Assembly (NCBI RefSeq): GCF_006345805.1
Contig: NW_021825598.1
Coordinates: forward strand, 1 to 15,064
Source: Octopus sinensis
Taxonomy: Eukaryota
Direction: 5' to 3'
DNA: 15,064 nucleotides
The translations under genes were made by a program, and so were the position numbers. The notes below the pieces were generated by a model. That model was not told where the DNA came from. It ran no database searches and saw only the letters and a program-made list of their open reading frames with translations. This document shows positions 1,948-11,907 of this stretch, piece after piece. Position 1 is the stretch's first letter; the number at the start of each line of letters is the position of its first letter.

Positions 1948-2001
1948 ACGGGCAGGCTTCTTTCAGTTTCCATCCACTAAATCCACTCACAAGGTTTTGA
2001 C
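1948..2001 (-). mobile_element. SINE family A, partial head
   Basis: GGCTTCTTTCAGTTTCCATCCACTAAATCCACTCACAAGG matches 2628-2668. Confidence 0.7.
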
Positions 2002-2786: not shown

Positions 2787-2918
2787 ATATTGTTAATTTT
2801 TAGATTACTGAACTACTTCTCACACTTAAGTTTAATTTTGCAGCGCCATTACACATCAGCTTTTACACTATTTGCATACACTTCGAACTGACGATACGAT
2901 TTCGTTTCGGAAGGGAGG

Positions 2919-2977
2919 CGAGTATACAGTGCTGATGAGCAGAAATAACTGCGAAATATCGATATCTATTGTTCTCG
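2919..2977 (+). ncRNA. Minimal type I hammerhead ribozyme candidate with a fully canonical core
   Basis: CTGATGA(2932-2938); stem II GCAG-aaataa-CTGC; GAAA(2953-2956); palindromic stem III ATATCGATAT; AUC site with predicted cleavage after C2966; stem I ACAGTG/TATTGT (two G-U pairs) plus CGAG/CTCG. Confidence 0.6.
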
Positions 2978-3110
2978 TTCAGTTCCAGGGCGATTTCGTT
3001 TCGCCTTTGAAGTATACCGTGTTTTTTTAAACTTTGTACATCTTTATAGTGTAGACTCCCGTGCATAATACCACAGCCACAAGCGTTTAAGCTTGCAGGT
3101 TCTTCATATC

Positions 3111-4704: not shown

Positions 4705-5647
4705 TAGGGTCATATATAATGCAGTCTTTTTATACTGCGTTGTATATGCGTTTTTTTTTTTATACATTTTTATTTTTCAGAATTAAGATAAACAAAGTTC
4801 GTTTTTAAACTAAAATATATTCTCATTCATTTTCTACAATGTTCTTCAATCCATCTGTTAGTCTTGCAAGCCTCCTCTTCCAAAATTCATTTGACCGTGA
4901 CGAAAAATACTACGCCAGTACTGTTCTAACCTCGTCTATAGAATTCATATTTTTTTCGTCTAAATGATTTTGAAAGCTGCGGAATAAATGAATTAGCAGA
5001 TGGGGCAATGTCCAGCGAAAATGTTATCGTGGGGAACCGTTTCCTACTGAAACTGCTCCAGCCTTTGCAATGTCATCCTCGCTATATGTGGCCGAACATT
5101 ATCCTGATGGAAGAACACCTTTCATCTTGAAACCAAAAATGCTCGTTTTTCGATGGCACACAGGTGTCGATGAATGGTTGAATGACTAAATCCAAGCTAC
5201 TCTGCTTGCTGTTCAACAGTTACAATGGGAATTTGTTCCACCAGGATTTGCAGGGCGCCCTCGTTGAACTCTACAGATCTTTCAGGACGAGGCTCATCTG
5301 CTAGGCTGTAGTTTTGGACTCTGCAACCACCTTTGACCCTGGCTTACGCTTATTGTCCGATCCCCATATACAGCATTAATATTGCTCGCACTTTCAGTTG
5401 CATTGTTGTCTTTATTGAACTCAGGAAGCAAAATATGCCGAATATGCTCCTTTGTCACTTCCATTATAGCTTTGAAAATGTAACTGTTAAAATCGAACTG
5501 CACTCTTCAAAACTTGCACTAAGAATAAGCAAAAGGTACAATTACTACTTACTTTTATAGCAAGTTGATGCAGGTAGTTTATCCCGTCCCCTTCCGACTT
5601 TTAGTTCAGGGAATTGAAAAAAACCGCATCATTTATGGACAACCCAA
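4705..5647 (-). mobile_element. Internally deleted, defective mariner (Tc1/mariner) DNA transposon
   Basis: The right TIR reads TTGGGTTGTCCATAAATGATGCGGTTTTTT on the minus strand; the degenerate left TIR reads TAGGGTCATATATAATGCAGTCTTTTT. Both ends abut TA, and transposase remnants lie between them. Confidence 0.85.
4805..5464 (-). pseudogene. Mariner transposase pseudogene (stops, frameshifts, central deletion)
   Basis: N-terminal HTH MEVTKEHIRHILL...NAVYG...QRW; VFFHQDNVRPH (HDNARPH motif); FSLDIAPS (YSPDLAPSD motif); LFRSFQNHL; C-terminal FWKRRLARL...EYILV*. Confidence 0.88.
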
Positions 5648-5659
5648 TATATATATATA

Positions 5660-5706
<47 letters not shown>
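5648..5706. repeat. (TA)n microsatellite, left target flank of the Penelope-like element
   Basis: Read directly from the sequence. Confidence 0.95.
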
Positions 5707-5708
<2 letters not shown>

Positions 5709-5804
5709 ATAAACGGTAAGATAACAAAAGAAAGAAAGAGACCTCATATTATATGTAAATAGAGGAAATTTATCTATACAATATGTTACATTACTCGGTA
5801 GTCA

Positions 5805-5865
5805 AGATAAACTCTGAGTTTCAGATGCCGAAGTGGAATCCCCAACACCATCTCTTCGGTTATCT
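5805..5865 (-). ncRNA. Variant minimal hammerhead-like motif in the PLE 3' UTR/pLTR (left copy)
   Basis: Minus strand: AGATAA CCGAAGA GATG...CATC T GAAA CTCAGAG TT TATCT. It has one T fewer at the cleavage site/stem I than the right copy. Confidence 0.55.
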
Positions 5866-6054
5866 GGCTATTTGAAAACGTTATGAAAAAATACCGTTAA
5901 AATGAAGGGAAATTACTCTGTTATAACTCTGCTTTGCCTGCGTACTTATACATCGCTCGCATTTTTCGTCATAAAAATTATATAAATACATAAAAATATA
6001 TAAAAATATATAAAATATATAAAATCTTCTTGGGACATAACACGAAAGCATGTT

Positions 6055-8016
6055 CTATCCGGTTTCTTTAGGGGACCAAAACGTAACAGAAATTTAGTCA
6101 CATGTGGGCATGATCCGAAAAGCTCTGTCCTTGTATTTAGACATGTGTAGGGTCTAAGCTGCTTTTCCAGATAAGCCATCTCTCCATGTCGCATAAACCG
6201 CACCTTCCGCTGCCGTTAGTATAGGGCTTACATCTGGCCAAAATCTTCCATTGTATGTTATAATCGACACCTTTATCTCTTAAAGACCAAATATGATTGG
6301 ATAATTGTGTCGCTTTTCTTTTGTTCCAGTGCCTAAAGCTCAAAGTGTGGTTATTGAACCTGGCCTTGAAATTACCCTCTGTCAGGCCCACGTATTTCTC
6401 TTCGTCGAAACGGTGTCTTTAGTGGTTATAGAGTTTACGGTAGCTTCATATATGATGGTCTTGGACATGCAAGCTCCATTTAGCGGGCACAATTCTTTAT
6501 TCCTGCATGACACTGTTTTCTTTTTCTTCTTGTGTTTTTTGTATGTTATGATTGATTATGTTTTTAAAATTGGTAGTTGAACTAAAACTAATTTTTAAAT
6601 TGTGTCTATTAAGAGTTTCCTATAAGCATGGTTACTGGAAAATGTCTATCTATCAGTGCTAGGAAATTTACCTATATTGAAGGCCACCTCGGGTGAGTAA
6701 GGGGGTAAACCAGATGACCTTCCTATTTCTATTATTCCTTTTCCTTATTGTTGGGCTGGTGATAGGTGTATATTTTATTTTTTCGCTAAACCACTATCTT
6801 TTAAAGCTTTATTATAAACTGGGGCAACGCTATTGAAGATGTCCTCATTAGATGAGAGGCTAGAAATCCTCTTACTAATATTTTAACTAAATTTTTGAAT
6901 ACTATAGGGGGATGGCATGAACCTACATTAATATAACTTAGTCTATCATTGGGCTTCCTATAAGGCTTATAAATATTATTATTAAGATCTAAGGAAACGT
7001 CTAAGAAATTGACAACCGTCAGGTTAGTGTCTATAGTTATACTAAGTCCGAAGTGTTTCATTAACTGGATAATATCCTTCCTAAAACGATCTTGTGCTGG
7101 TCCATTTGTATTAGCTGTTAAGGCGAGGGCATCATCTTTGTAGATGGCGAAATGTACGTTAGGGAATGTCTTACCGAAGGTATCTAGGAGAAAGAGTCCA
7201 ATTAGATCACAGATGCCTGCCCCATCATATGAACCCATGCTCACATCGAAAGCGCCCTCCGTGTCGGTGTTTTTTACCCACTTTGCATTCTCACTGAAAA
7301 GTAATGTCTTCTAGCATGGAAGATTATATCCTTATCATTGGTACTAATTTCTATGAAGTCACTAGCGAAGATTAGGGCTTTATCTAGCAGTTCTTTAGAG
7401 ATAGAGGCATAAAAATCACAACAATATCGAATTGTGTAAACCTCGCTTTTTTCTTATTCTTAATAGCTTTAAACCGTCTAAACGACTCTCTATACTATTG
7501 GACCATTGCACTAGCCTAGTATCGGTCTTATTTTCGTATTTATTTTATCTAAAATTTCTTTGCTAATAATCCCTAGTTCTGACTTGGCTGGGTTGATAAG
7601 CCTACATTTAGGGTTGGAAAGGAAGTTTTCTTTGTGGTCTTTAATAGTAATAAAGGCCTCTTTTAGGGGGAGGGTTTCTATTTTTTTATCTAATTTAAGT
7701 TTAGCGGCGATGACGCTAGCTTCTTTATTAATTTCGTTATATGTCTGTGCCCTAGCCTTAGTATATTATTAATGATGCTGTTGTGTAAGAGTTGTGTGTA
7801 TTTGCTGTTATCTACCAGGTATAAGTTTCTTGGTTTTATCCGAAAAAAGTGCTTTTTTCTTGGAGCTTTTTATATGATCAATATCTTTTTTCAATTATGT
7901 TGGAAATTGTTAAAAGACTTACGAAACTTTATTTTGCTCATGATCTTCAGCAGGTCCGTTTCGAAATCTTCCAAGCCTTTAATCCTAGGAGGGAATTTTT
8001 TGGATTTTATCCGATA
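6055..8016 (-). pseudogene. PLE RT/GIY-YIG ORF, frameshifted as assembled (left arm)
   Basis: ORF fragments MGSYDGAG...YKDD...FLDV...PYRKP...HPP and GLTEGNFKARFNNH...CGLC...LNTRTELFGSCPH. Confidence 0.9.
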
Positions 8017-8068
8017 GCAATTTTATATCCGATAGCAAATTTTATCCGATAGAAAGGAAAACATTTGC

Positions 8069-10019
8069 TATCGGATAAAATCCAAAAAATTCCCTCCTAG
8101 GATTAAAGGCTTGGAAGATTTCGAAACGGACCTGCTGAAGATCATGAGCAAAATAAAGTTTCGTAAGTCTTTTAACATTTCCACATAAATTGAAAAAAGA
8201 TATTGATCATATAAAAAGCTCCAAGAAAAAAGCACTTTTTTCGGATAAAACCAAGAACTTATACCTGGTAGATAACAGCTACACACACTCTTACACAACA
8301 GCATCATTAATAATTATACTAAGGCTAGGGCACAGACATATAACGAAATTAATAAAGAAGCTAGCGTCATCGCCGCTAAACTTAAATTAGATAAAAAAAT
8401 AGAAACCCTCCCCTAAAAGAGGCTTTATTACTATTAAAGACCACAAAGAAAACTTCCTTTCCAACCCTAAATGTAGGCTTATCAACCCAGCCAAGTCAGA
8501 ACTAGGGATTATTAGCAAAGAAATTTTAGATAAAATAAATACGAAAATTAAGACCGATACTAGGCTAGTGCAATGGTCAATAGTATAGAAGTCGTAGACT
8601 GGTTTAAAGCTATTAAGAATAAGAAAAAAGCGAGGTTTACACAATTCGATATTGTTGATTTTTATGCCTCTATCTCTAAAGAACTGCTAGATAAAGCCCT
8701 AATCTTCGCTAGTGACTTCATAGAAATTAGTACCAATGATAAGGATATAATCTTCCATGCTAGAAAGACATTACTTTTCAGTGAGAATGCAAAGTGGGTA
8801 AAAAACACCGACACGGAGGGCGCTTTCGATGTGAGCATGGGTTCATATGATGGGGCAGGCATCTGTGATCTAATTGGACTCTTTCTCCTAGATACCTTCG
8901 GTAAGACATTCCCTAACGTACATTTCGCCATCTACAAAGATGATGCCCTCGCCTTAACAGCTAATACAAATGGACCAGCACAAGATCGTTTTAGGAAGGA
9001 TATTATCCATTAATGAAACACTTCGGACTTAGTATAACTATAGACACTAACCTGACGGTTGTCAATTTCTTAGACGTTTCCTTAGATCTTAATAATAATA
9101 TTTATAAGCCTTATAGGAAGCCCAATGATAGACTAAGTTATATTAATGTAGGTTCATGCCATCCCCCTATAGTATTCAAAAATTTAGTTAAAAATATTAG
9201 TAAGAGGATTTCTAGCCTCTCATCTAATGAGGACATCTTCAATAGCGTTGCCCCAGTTTATAATAAAGCTTTAAAAGATAGTGGTTTTAGCGAAAAAATA
9301 AAATATACACCTATCACCAGCCCAACATAAGGAAAAGGAATAATAGAAATAGGAAGGTCATCTGGTTTACGCCCCCTTACTCACCCGAGGTGGCCTTCAA
9401 TATAGGTAAATATTTCCTAGCACTGATAGATAGACATTTTCCAGTTAACCATGCTTATAGGAAACTCTTTAATAGACACAATTTAAAAATTAGTTTTAGT
9501 TCAACTACCAATTTAAAAACATAATCAATCATAATATACAAAAAACACAAGAAGAAAACAGCTGTTCATGCAGGAATAAAGAATTGTGCCCGCTAAATGG
9601 AGCTTGCATGTCCAAGACCATCATATATGAAGCTACCGTAAACTCTATAACCACTAAAGACACCGTTTCGACGAAGAAATACGTGGGCCTGACAGAGGGT
9701 AATTTCAAGGCCAGGTTCAATAACCACACTTTGAGCTTTAGGCACTGGAACAAAAGAAAAGCGACACAATTATCCAATCATATTGGTCTTTAAGAGATAA
9801 AGGTGTCGATTATAACATACAATGGAAGATTTTGGCCAGATGTAAGCCCTATACTAACGGCAGCGGAAGGTGCGGTTTATGCGACATGGAGAGATGGCTT
9901 ATCTGGAAAGCAGCTTAGACCCTACCACATGTCTAAATACAAGGACAGAGCTTTTCGGATCATGCCCACATGTGACTAAATTTCTGTTACGTTTTTGGTC
10001 CCCTAAAGAAAACGGATAG
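8069..10019 (+). pseudogene. PLE reverse transcriptase plus C-terminal GIY-YIG endonuclease (~650 codons, N-terminus missing, frameshifted as assembled); tentatively Hydra-clade-like
   Basis: SDKT, KDHK, CRLINPAKS, FDIVDFY (8645), MGSYDG, YKDD (8933-8944), FLDV, YRKP, HPP; CSC-x5-CP-x4-C linker; IIY(9620)...YVG(9680), FKARF-x2-H, CGLC-x2-E, LN, C-x-H. The clade label is from memory of the family and was not tested. Confidence 0.9.
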
Positions 10020-10211
10020 AACATGCTTTCTGTGTTATGTCCCAAGAAGATTTTATATATTTTATATATTTTTATATATTTTTATGTATTTTTATATAAT
10101 TTTTATGACGAAAAATGCGAGCGATGTATAGTACGCAGGCAAAGCAGAGTTATAACAGAGTAATTTCCCTTCATTTTTAACGGTATTTTTTCATAACGTT
10201 TTCAAATAGCC

Positions 10212-10274
10212 AGATAACCGAAGAGATGGTGTTGTGGATTTCCACTTCGGCATCTGAAACTCAGAGTTTTATCT
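10212..10274 (+). ncRNA. Variant minimal type I hammerhead-like motif in the PLE 3' UTR/pLTR (right copy)
   Basis: Stem I AGATAA(10212-17)/TTATCT(10269-74); core CCGAAGA (U4C variant); stem II GATG/CATC with inner GTGG/CCAC; extra T10255; GAAA(10256-59); stem III ACTC-A-GAGT; GUU site at 10266-68. Confidence 0.65.
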
Positions 10275-10304
10275 TGACTACCGAGTAATGTAACATATTG
10301 TATA

Positions 10305-10601
10305 GATATATATATATATATATATGGGGGTGTATGTATGTATGCATGCATGTATGTACGTATATATGTATGTATATATGTGTGTATATGTATGTATTAT
10401 GTATGTATTATGTAATGTATTTATGTATGTATGTATTTTGTGCTGTTACAAAAAAACATATATATGCTTCGTGGTGCGCTCGAATAAATAAATAAATATT
10501 ATATATATTATAATATATTATATATATATATATATATATATTATAGTATATATAATATATTATATATATATATGTATATATATATATACACATATATATA
10601 T
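10305..10601. repeat. (TA)n and degenerate (TATG)n microsatellite region
   Basis: Read directly from the sequence; interrupted by a short unique stretch at ~10440-10496. Confidence 0.85.
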
Positions 10602-10739: not shown

Positions 10740-10802
10740 TTAAATAAGTAACAGTTATGCAGTGCGGTCAATGTAATCGACTTAATCCCTTTGTCTGTCC
10801 TT
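10740..10802 (+). repeat. Inverted fragment of the adjacent SINE D array unit
   Basis: TAAATAAGTAACAGTTATGCA...ATGTAATCGACTTAATCCC...TGTCTGTCCTT is the near reverse complement of 11062-11123 and 10845-10907. Confidence 0.85.
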
Positions 10803-11907
10803 ATTTCTTTATTGCCCATAAGGGGCTAAACATAGAGGGACAACCAAAGACAGAGAACTGGATTAAGTCGATTATATCGACCCCAGTACATAACTGTTAC
10901 TTATTTAATAGACCCCGAAAGGATGAAAGGCAAAGTCGACCTCGGCGGAATTTGAAATCAGAACGTAACGGCAGACGAAATACTGCTAAGCATTCCGCCG
11001 GCGTGCTAACGTTTCTTATTTCTTTATTGCCCACAAGGGGCCAAATATAGAGGGGACAACCAAGGACAGACAACGGGATTAAGTCGATTACATCGACACC
11101 AGTGCATAACTGTTACTTATTTAATAGACCTCGAAAGGATGAAAGGCAAAGTCGACCTCGGCGGAATTTGAAATCAGAACGTAACGGCAGACGAAATACT
11201 GCTAAGCATTCCGCCGGCGTGCTAACGTTTCTTATTTCTTTATTGCCCACAAGGGGCCAAATATAGAGGGGACAACCAAGGACAGACAACGGGATTAAGT
11301 CGATTACATCGACACCAGTGCATAACTGTTACTTATTTAATAGACCTCGAAAGGATGAAAGGCAAAGTCGACCTCGGCGGAATTTGAAATCAGAACGTAA
11401 CGGCAGACGAAATACTGCTAAGCATTTCGCCCGGCGTGCCAACGTTTCTTATTTCTTTACTGCCCACAAGGGCTACACCAGAGAGAGGACAAACAAGGAC
11501 AGACAAACGGAATAAGTCGATTACATCGACCCCCAGTGCGTAATTGGTACTTATTTTATCGACCCCGAAAGGATGAAAGGCAAAGTCGACCTCGGCGGAA
11601 TTTGAAATCAAACGTAACGGCAGACGAAATACTGCTAAGCATTTCGCCCGGCGTGCCAACGTTTCTTATTTCTTTACTGCCCACAAGGGGCTACACACAG
11701 AGAGAGGACAAACAAGGACAGACAAACGGAATAAGTCGATTACATCGACCCCAGTGCGTAATTGGTACTTAATTTATCGACCCCGAAAGGATGAAAGGCA
11801 AAGTCGACCTCGGCGGAATTTGAAATCAGAACGTAACGGTAGACGAAATACTGCTGACCATTTCGCCCTTCGCCCGGCGTGCTAACGTTTCTGCCAGCTC
11901 GTCCCCT
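10803..11907 (-). repeat. Tandem array of five 216-218 bp copies of a tRNA-derived SINE (family D)
   Basis: GGATGAAAGGCAAAGTCGACC starts at 10921, 11137, 11353, 11571 and 11789. The minus-strand head GGGGACGAGCTGGCAGAAACGTTAGC...GATTTCAAATTCC (A/B-box-like) is complete only in the rightmost unit. Confidence 0.9.

What the first reader, a model, noticed from the sequence alone, without database searches (positions are those of the whole stretch)
5707..10308. 4.6 kb head-to-head palindrome of a Penelope-like retroelement
Seen: two ~2.25 kb arms truncated at almost the same 5' position, a 44-nt spacer, and both 3' ends pointing outward into (TA)n. Symmetry stops at the element boundary, and the left arm has ~64 nt more 3' sequence. 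Established: PLEs form inverted and tandem insertions. Inference: arms covering nearly the whole ORF suggest cDNA fold-back and self-copying in a single integration event. Read-through from either side would give a ~2.2 kb hairpin RNA ending at a hammerhead-like motif, a possible source of silencing small RNAs or an ADAR substrate.
Basis: partly seen in the sequence, partly recalled or inferred. Interest (0 to 1): 0.75.

Follow-up and report, generated by a model that had tools for sequence, protein, structure and literature searches.

The report
Head-to-head Penelope-like retroelement insertion pair
Two inverted, nearly equal 2.3 kb copies of a young Penelope-like retrotransposon of the Hydra clade sit head to head in a (TA)n repeat; this is the usual insertion form of that family in this genome, so the finding is real but ordinary, and it was likely made in a single integration event.

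Summary
The palindrome is in the sequence as described. The left arm is 5707-8020 (-), the right arm 8054-10308 (+), with 33 nt of filler between them. The arms differ by 3 substitutions and 39 mostly homopolymer indels.

The element is a Penelope-like element (PLE) of the Hydra clade. It has one ORF, a C-terminal GIY-YIG nuclease without the CCHH motif, the motifs RWK, DKT and CxCX5C, a 2,590-nt unit and a (TA)n target. A related family, Hydra-1_Obim, is already published.

The arrangement is family-wide:
- 51 of 64 loci examined are head-to-head pairs.
- 41 of 41 classifiable pairs carry the 64-nt 3' "tail" on exactly one arm, as the window does.
- 7 of 39 simple pairs are near-symmetric like the window, against 0.9 expected.

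Inverted 5'-truncated copies, a tail at one end and a (TA)n bias are published PLE features. So are the self-priming idea and small RNAs from Penelope inverted repeats.

I favour one event in which both cut target strands primed reverse transcription from two start sites. Fold-back self-copying is not excluded. A hammerhead-like motif is present but has a non-canonical core (CCGAAGAG). Transcription, small RNAs and editing were not tested. No independent reads confirmed this junction.

The parts
5647..5706 (.). (TA)30 microsatellite, the left remnant of the target
   Evidence: TRF period 2, 30 copies; sequence
5707..5770 (-). 64-nt 3' 'tail' of the left arm (unit 2527-2590), absent from the right arm
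   Evidence: The same 64 nt end exactly one arm in 41 of 41 classifiable pairs.
5771..8020 (-). Left arm body (unit 266-2526). It holds the RT and GIY-YIG coding sequence, which is 5'-truncated and broken by indels.
5806..5864 (-). Hammerhead-like motif of the left arm (stem I, core CCGAAGAG, stem II, GAA, stem III, stem I)
   Evidence: Read against the motif parsed. Same layout as the Hydra-1_oBim HHR in File S2 of PMC8557442.
8021..8053 (.). Junction filler: two tandem re-copies of the left arm's last 16-18 nt
   Evidence: TRF 8004-8052 period 18. The 70-nt junction occurs once in the genome.
8054..10308 (+). Right arm (unit 255-2526) without a tail. It holds the RT and GIY-YIG coding sequence, which is 5'-truncated and broken by indels. 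The frame ends at 10019.
10213..10273 (+). Hammerhead-like motif of the right arm, 35 nt from the arm's 3' end
   Evidence: No Rfam hammerhead hit here.
10309..10325 (.). (TA)n, the right remnant of the target
   Evidence: Sequence

Best explanation
The 4.6 kb palindrome is a head-to-head pair of two 5'-truncated copies of a young Hydra-clade Penelope-like retrotransposon inserted in a (TA)n microsatellite, and it was likely made in one integration event.

Shown here:
- The identity of the element.
- The arm coordinates.
- That the same arrangement, with one tailed and one tail-less arm, is the family's usual insertion form.

Inferred:
- The element's GIY-YIG nuclease cut both strands of the (TA)n target.
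- Each 3'-OH primed reverse transcription of element RNA. One started at the downstream start site (the arm with the 64-nt tail) and one at the upstream site (the arm ending ...GTATAGATA).
- Both cDNAs stopped near unit position 255-266.
- They were joined at their 5' ends by a template switch that stuttered and left two re-copies of 16-18 nt.

Both arms lack the start of the ORF, so neither would be autonomous.
For: Identity:
- Natural 717-residue open frames in L015 and L012 carry RWK, DKT, CxCX5C (CSCRNKELC), a GIY...YIG core without internal cysteines, CGLC and CPH. These are the features listed for the Hydra clade in PMC8557442 section 11.
- The frame is collinear, block by block, with the printed Hydra-1_Obim protein (compared by eye).
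- Pieces of the window's arms hit Pfam GIY-YIG weakly, at E 0.002.
- Atlas relatives carry HTH_animal, DUF8422, GIY-YIG and RVT_1.
- 835 relatives were found at E<=1e-3, the best at 52% identity.

Family-wide architecture:
- 51 of 64 loci have a head-to-head junction.
- In the sample drawn with the 3'-terminal 300 nt, 25 of 30 loci do.
- 41 of 41 classifiable junctions have exactly one tail.
- All 3' ends seen abut (TA)n or a tandem unit.

Single template or single event:
- In 16 of 16 other pairs the partner arms differ less than the mean of non-partners, and in 10 of these 16 at most 5% of non-partner comparisons are as close.
- The window arms differ by 3 substitutions in 2273 columns.

Literature:
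- A purified Poseidon PLE protein cleaves and extends both target strands and starts at two sites that bracket the tail (PMC11167929, main text read).
- An inverted 5'-truncated copy, a tail at one end and a (TA)n bias are described PLE features (PMC8557442 passages).
Against: - The window's arms are no closer to each other than to several unlinked copies (3-6 mismatches by blastn; one shared derived site). Their likeness alone does not prove one event.
- Near-symmetric pairs are over-represented (7 of 39 against 0.91 expected). Two independently stopping cDNAs do not predict this without an added assumption such as a shared stop site, a collision or a U-turn.
- In vitro, no difference in start site between the two target strands was reported. 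The strict one-tail rule is therefore not directly explained by that work.
- No independent read or contig confirmed this particular junction.
- The contig is unplaced and rich in indel errors.
Confidence: 0.6

Rival explanations
1. Fold-back (self-priming). A single cDNA primed on one target strand snapped back on itself near unit 255-266 and copied itself outwards. The new strand's end then annealed to the (TA)n on the other side.
For: - Near-symmetric pairs form a real class: 7 of 39 against 0.91 expected, with 0 of 20,000 permutations reaching 7.
- Some junctions are near-perfect palindromes with 0-2 nt at the centre (L036, L039).
- Junction fillers are local re-copies (window, L050, L071).
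- (TA)n is its own reverse complement, so a copied flank could anneal to the far side.
- Arkhipova et al. 2013 inferred self-priming from palindromes at inverted junctions (PMC3846280 passages).
Against: - Self-copying predicts identical 3' ends on both arms, yet 41 of 41 classifiable pairs have one tailed and one tail-less arm. This would need an extra, site-specific resolution step.
- 32 of 39 simple pairs are asymmetric, many by more than 500 nt.
- In 4 of 4 untied near-symmetric pairs the tail-less arm is the longer one (2 ties). The arm that would have been made first then lacks the tail that its supposed copy carries.
Confidence: 0.25
2. Assembly artefact: a fold-back chimeric long read, or a mis-join, produced a palindrome that does not exist in the genome.
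For: - The window is a whole unplaced 15 kb contig made of repeats.
- Its indel error rate is several times that of other loci.
- No second copy of the junction or of the flanks exists in the assembly.
Against: - Symmetry stops exactly at the element's two canonical 3' termini, and the 5.7 kb and 4.8 kb flanks are unrelated.
- The one-tail asymmetry matches 40 other pairs, most of them on chromosome-scale contigs with few indels.
- A chimeric read would mirror the flank as well.
Confidence: 0.05
3. Two independent insertions of the same family into one (TA)n tract, in opposite orientation, that by chance ended 11 nt apart.
For: - The family is abundant: at least 1,252 candidate 3' ends.
- It targets (TA)n.
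- The arms are no more alike than some unlinked copies.
Against: - 51 of 64 loci show the same abutting head-to-head form, with 0-40 nt between the arms.
- There is always one tail per pair (41 of 41).
- No (TA)n is left between the arms.
- Partner arms elsewhere share variants.
Confidence: 0.03

Closest known systems
Hydra-clade Penelope-like elements, in particular Hydra-1_Obim (Craig et al. 2021, PMC8557442, section 11 and supplementary files S1/S2)
   Same: [quoted passage not shown]
- RWK and DKT motifs, a CxCX5C linker, no CCHH, and CxxC and CxH motifs.
- (TA)n target.
- A hammerhead-type motif of the same layout near the 3' end.
- The protein is collinear with the printed Hydra-1_Obim sequence.
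   Different: - It is a different family. By eye, roughly half of the residues in the printed stretch are identical. No computed alignment was made, because the published sequence was not entered into any tool.
- The unit is 2,526 nt plus a 64-nt tail, against 2,507 nt.
- The hammerhead core reads CCGAAGAG, against ctgaagag.
- The published entry is noted as having 'no pLTR', whereas tandem, pLTR-like copies occur here (L003, L007, L011, L012, L015, L040, L047, L068).
Canonical PLE insertion structure: pLTR, an adjacent inverted 5'-truncated copy, and a tail at one end (Evgen'ev and Arkhipova 2005 and Arkhipova 2006 as cited in PMC8557442; PMC3846280)
   Same: - An inverted copy directly at the 5' end.
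- 5' truncation.
- An extension present on one end only.
- An AT-rich or (TA)n target.
   Different: - The tail is 64 nt rather than 30-40 nt.
- In the window both arms are long (about 88% of the unit) and nearly equal, which is the minority form (7 of 39 simple pairs).
Poseidon element PAc of Anolis, studied in vitro (Frangieh et al. 2024, PMC11167929)
   Same: Both strands of an AT-rich target are cut and extended, and two internal RT start sites bracket the tail. This matches the two 3' termini seen here, 64 nt apart.
   Different: PAc belongs to another clade. No in vitro data exist for this element. The paper reports no strand preference for the start sites, whereas genomic pairs here always combine one of each.
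Twin priming and 5' inversion of LINE-1
   Same: A second priming event on the other target strand creates an inverted segment.
   Different: In L1 the inverted part is a different, more 5' portion of one RNA, and only one 3' end is present. Here each arm has its own 3' end and the arms duplicate each other.

Membership tests
Penelope-like elements (EN+) | A single ORF with a PLE-type RT followed by a GIY-YIG endonuclease | tested here: met
   - 717-residue natural open frames.
- GIY-YIG hit by Pfam only weakly, in window ORF pieces (E 0.002, below the cut-off), and not in the whole protein.
- RT blocks (KDHK...CRLINP, FDV.MGSYDG, YKDDAL) are collinear with the PLE alignment printed in the supplement of PMC8557442 (by eye).
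- Atlas relatives carry GIY-YIG and RVT_1.
Hydra clade of PLEs | An RWK motif, and DKG changed to DKT | tested here: met
   RMRWKAFFF and LFSDKTKNLY in P0001, against the description
Hydra clade of PLEs | No CCHH inside the GIY-YIG core; a CxCX5C linker; CxxC and CxH around the conserved E and N | tested here: met
   CSCRNKELC; IIYEATVNSITTKDTVSTKKYVGLT without cysteines; CGLC ... CPH
Hydra clade of PLEs | Short element (under 3 kb) that inserts into (TA)n | tested here: met
   The unit is 2,590 nt. The 3' flanks of all arms listed are (TA)n or a tandem unit.
Hydra clade of PLEs | Placement in the Hydra clade in an RT phylogeny | not tested
   No tree was built. The published reference proteins were not entered into tools.
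Hammerhead ribozyme (canonical, type I, PLE-associated) | Catalytic core CUGANGA ... GAAA, with stems I-III | tested here: not met
   - Stems I-III and the GAA are present.
- The core is CCGAAGAG in 73 of 73 copies.
- The pattern CTGANGA N7-17 GAAA is absent from the element, and no good wider-spaced match exists.
- No Rfam hammerhead match at E<=1 or E<=10.
- Cleavage activity cannot be tested with these tools.
PLE head-to-head insertion structure | An inverted 5'-truncated copy abutting the 5' end, with a tail on one end only | tested here: met
   Window. Family: 51 of 64 loci are head-to-head, and 41 of 41 classifiable pairs have one tail.

The most novel reading that the evidence does not exclude
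The one-tail rule and the near-symmetric pairs together suggest a concrete integration mechanism for PLEs:
- Two reverse transcriptases of one dimeric particle, each primed by one strand of the cut (TA)n, travel in tandem along the same RNA from start sites 64 nt apart.
- When the leader (the tail-less arm) stalls, the follower (the tailed arm) stops a few nucleotides behind it.
- The follower then switches onto the leader's cDNA, which joins the two arms head to head.

The window would be a frozen example of such a collision.

The nested, mirrored junctions in L060 and L013/14 would then mean that read-through RNAs of existing palindromes are themselves re-inserted.
Probability: 0.2. Interest if true: 0.6.

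Novelty: new member of a known kind. Interest (0 to 1): 0.3.

Why it matters
As a single locus it matters little. It is a standard product of PLE integration, the fold-back idea is already in print, and small RNAs from such inverted repeats have been reported for Penelope copies in Drosophila.

The family around it is more useful. It is very young (partner arms differ by 0-8 substitutions per kb) and abundant (at least 1,252 candidate 3' ends). Its insertions record both 3' start sites and both 5' stop sites. It is therefore a natural data set for the still unsolved PLE integration mechanism, and an in vivo counterpart, in another clade, to the in vitro finding of two start sites and cleavage of both strands.

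Long perfect palindromes of this kind are also a practical hazard for assembly and annotation.

Tried and rejected
- **Independent reads.** 24 runs were listed, and none held half of the sampled words. Laying two raw Illumina runs and two sets of contigs on 7700-8400 gave no record bridging 7988-8053. The raw runs gave 0 and 7 reads. There is no verdict on the junction. The second read-laying run was not spent, because the runs on offer are low-coverage or contig-only, and (TA)n flanks break contigs.
- **Empty allele or allelic contig.** The left flank is an old repeat with 6,690 candidates at 80-85% identity, and the right flank matches only repeat pieces. No allelic copy was found.
- **Pfam on the whole protein and on four relatives.** No meaningful hit.
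- **PDB sequence search.** Only chance-level hits (E 0.09 and 0.96).
- **Rfam.** No hammerhead in the element. The microRNA 'hits' at 7981-8104 are just the palindrome centre and microsatellites.
- **MAFFT keep-length alignment for counting window arm differences.** It gave 27 'substitutions' in clusters beside indels. I rejected this as misalignment and replaced it.
- **Reading the many copies that began at query position 1-3 as full length.** This was an artefact of the query boundary, corrected.
- **L060 and L013/14 as proof of self-copying.** Rejected, because two cDNAs from one chimeric read-through RNA explain them equally well.
- **Earlier notes of this scan.** None exist for this genome.
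Full report
**1. Observation**

The window holds a 4.6 kb inverted repeat.
- blastn of the left half against the right half gives one alignment, 5771-8100 against 10308-7985 (96.7% of 2362 columns; 8 mismatches, 48 gap openings).
- Beyond the repeat only (TA)n matches between the two sides.
- The repeat finder reports perfectly complementary blocks of 245 and 184 nt.
- The outer ends abut (TA)n: 5647-5706 (30 copies) and 10309-10325.
- The window is an entire unplaced contig, C2069, of a 2.72 Gb assembly with 13,516 contigs.

**2. The element**

A search of the window's own genome with the right arm found 67 matches among 40 scored candidates, out of 1,921 candidates.

A natural tandem copy (L003) gave a full repeat unit of 2,590 nt:
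- about 108 nt of leader;
- an ATG at L003:1343;
- a body running to unit 2526;
- a 64-nt tail (2527-2590) that in tandem copies runs straight into the next unit.

On this unit the window's left arm is 266-2590 (5707-8020, - strand, with tail). The right arm is 255-2526 (8054-10308, + strand, no tail). Both arms therefore lack the leader and about 53 codons.

Two natural copies (L015, L012) have 717-residue open frames. These frames contain:
- RMRWK and SDKT;
- the RT blocks KDHK..CRLINPAKSE, FDVSMGSYDG and IYKDDAL;
- a CSCRNKELC linker (CxCX5C);
- a GIY...YIG core with no cysteines;
- CGLC and CPH.

This is the feature list that Craig et al. 2021 give for their Hydra clade of C-terminal-EN PLEs. 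That clade is short (under 3 kb) and targets (TA)n (PMC8557442, section 11 read in full).

Their supplement lists Hydra-1_Obim (2,507 nt, (TA)n) from a cephalopod. It also prints that element's protein, which is collinear with P0001 block by block. I compared the two by eye only and did not enter the published sequence into any tool.

Other database evidence:
- Local Pfam finds only a sub-threshold GIY-YIG in window ORF pieces (E 0.002) and nothing in the whole protein.
- The protein atlas places P0001 next to clusters carrying HTH_animal, DUF8422, GIY-YIG and RVT_1.
- The big protein search found 835 relatives, the best at 52% identity, mostly on contigs of about 2.5 kb.

**3. Quality and age of the two arms**

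A gap-tolerant global alignment gives 3 substitutions and 39 indel events. 31 of the 39 are single-base-type changes in homopolymer runs.

Against the reference unit, the window's arms show 32 and 15 gap openings but only 9 and 8 mismatches. Most other loci show 0-5 gap openings. The frameshifts that fragment the ORF in both arms therefore look like consensus errors of a poorly polished contig, not decay.

The family is young. Partner arms elsewhere differ by 0-7.8 substitutions per kb, and unlinked copies by about 6-10 per kb.

**4. The arrangement is the family's rule**

I examined 64 loci including the window. They came from three samples:
- best matches to the window's arm;
- best matches to the 3'-terminal 300 nt;
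- best matches to unit 300-600.

Flanks were fetched. A scripted tally finds a head-to-head junction, with 3' ends outward and arms 0-60 nt apart, in 51 loci and none in 13. In the least length-biased sample (30 loci) 25 are head-to-head and 5 are not.

There are 55 junction rows in the tally.
- 41 have both outer ends in view and ending at one of the two canonical termini.
- All 41 combine one tailed and one tail-less arm.
- The other 14 rows could not be classified: 7 were cut by the end of the fetched stretch and 7 have non-canonical ends (L013, L028, L034, L036, a diverged second pair in L048, and two rows of L060).

Which arm is longer shows no bias by my hand count: the tail-less arm is longer in 17 pairs and the tailed arm in 20.

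Partner arms are more alike than non-partners in 16 of 16 pairs tested. For the window itself this test is uninformative, because several unlinked copies are as close (3-6 mismatches) and there is only one shared derived site.

**5. Symmetry**

Most pairs are asymmetric. However, 7 of 39 simple pairs have 5' ends within 15 nt of each other: the window, L036, L039, L048, L049, L050 and L071. Only 0.91 such pairs are expected when partners are permuted, and 0 of 20,000 permutations reach 7. The window belongs to this minority.

The junctions of this class fall into two kinds:
- near-perfect palindromes (L036, L039);
- junctions holding short local re-copies (window 33 nt, L050 18 nt, L071 10 nt).

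In the 4 untied cases the tail-less arm reaches 2-15 nt further 5' (window, L039, L048, L049). L050 and L071 are ties. This is suggestive only.

Two loci (L060, L013/14) have nested structures in which a chimeric junction appears twice in mirror image. This can be explained either by self-copying or by two cDNAs made from one chimeric RNA read through an older palindrome. I could not separate the two.

**6. How it most likely arose**

Published work supplies both candidate routes.
- Frangieh et al. 2024 (PMC11167929, main text read) showed that a purified Poseidon PLE protein cuts and extends both strands of an AT-rich target. It starts reverse transcription at two internal sites whose spacing corresponds to the tail.
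- Arkhipova et al. 2013 (PMC3846280, Discussion passages) proposed self-priming, from palindromes at inverted junctions.

The strict one-tail rule fits two priming events, one at each start site. It is not what simple self-copying predicts, because a copy should end as its template does.

The excess of near-symmetric pairs and the stuttered junctions show that the joining step often involves a U-turn or a template switch close to the stop of the other cDNA.

I therefore favour one event with priming on both target strands and a template switch at the 5' ends (0.6). I keep fold-back self-copying as the main rival (0.25). An assembly artefact (0.05) and two independent insertions (0.03) are unlikely, for the reasons given under the rivals. 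All mechanistic steps are inferred. Only the anatomy and the family statistics are shown.

**7. Hammerhead-like motif and the hairpin RNA**

Near the 3' end of each arm (10213-10273 +; 5806-5864 -) lies a motif with this layout:
- stem I GATAA/TTATC;
- core CCGAAGAG;
- a 30-nt stem II hairpin;
- GAA;
- stem III ACTC-A-GAGT;
- T.

This is the same layout as the hammerhead annotated for Hydra-1_oBim in File S2 of Craig et al..

All 73 copies of the motif in the fetched loci read CCGAAGAG, where the canonical core has U at that position. No Rfam hammerhead model matches. The published descriptor CUGANGA N7-17 GAAA does not match either. Folding recovers stem II, and in the centroid stem I (z -1.3).

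From recalled mutational work on hammerheads, a change at that core position would be expected to impair cleavage. This is not tested.

Because the arms are head to head, a transcript entering from either side would carry the downstream arm in sense. It could fold into a duplex of about 2.25 kb. That, and any small RNAs or A-to-I editing, are inference.

For Penelope in transformed D. melanogaster, siRNAs matching inverted regions have been reported (PMC3681739 passages).

**8. What could not be settled**

- No independent read or contig bridged the junction.
- The 70-nt junction is unique in the assembly.
- No allelic or empty site exists in the assembly.

**9. Verdict**

The identification as a PLE is confirmed and sharpened to the Hydra clade. 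The palindrome is a standard, already described product of PLE integration, in its less common near-symmetric, long-armed form. The locus is ordinary. The family is a good natural data set for the open question of how PLEs integrate.

Noticed in passing
window 2914-2988 (+): A canonical hammerhead core (CTGATGAGCAGAAATAACTGCGAAA, with a 4-bp stem II) lies outside the palindrome, about 250 nt downstream of a SINE-like head at 2628-2672. Rfam HH9 scores 23 bits, E 0.073, below its gathering score. The fold is no better than shuffles (z 0.14). It may be a retrozyme or a piece of another PLE.
   Followed up: partly
window 10800-11868: A 216-nt tandem repeat with 4.9 copies (94% matches). Pieces of it recur at many places in the genome, often in pairs about 184-216 nt apart.
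   Followed up: partly
window 4755-5640: The left flank of the insertion is an older repeat of about 885 nt. It has 6,690 candidate copies at 80-85% identity and ends just before the (TA)n that the PLE used.
   Followed up: partly
L060 (G000:C16:30285500-30293000) and L013/L014 (G000:C8:104809703-104817568): Nested palindromes. The outer arms break at the same unit position (1160/1160; 280/280) and continue into a second, oppositely oriented inner pair, so a chimeric junction occurs twice in mirror image. This would fit re-insertion of a read-through RNA of an older head-to-head pair, or self-copying.
   Followed up: partly
family loci L017, L026, L033, L036, L039, L043, L062 (unit 1087-1129); L027, L031, L044, L050 (unit 1231-1242); window, L002, L008, L009, L013, L016, L019 (unit 214-281): The 5' ends of arms cluster at a few unit positions. 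This suggests pause or break sites of reverse transcription, or of the RNA. The window's junction lies in one such cluster, next to an A-rich run.
   Followed up: no
runs X23 and X24 laid on window 7700-8400: Two raw Illumina runs with the same species label gave 0 and 7 reads from about 1.9 billion letters each, on a stretch of an element with over a thousand copies in this assembly. Either the reads are filtered or those individuals lack the family. Unexplained.
   Followed up: no
L038 (G000:C7:94249506-94257805) and L073 (G000:C3:147244500-147250500): The same truncated, tail-less copy occurs twice in direct orientation, 2.0-2.7 kb apart (unit 1337-2526 twice; 485-2529 twice), without an inverted partner. 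These look like local duplications rather than separate insertions.
   Followed up: no
window 1955-1999 and 2628-2672: Two copies of a 45-nt SINE-like head (84% alike). With the dense microsatellites, this gives the contig the look of a cephalopod genome. That resemblance is recalled, not tested.
   Followed up: no
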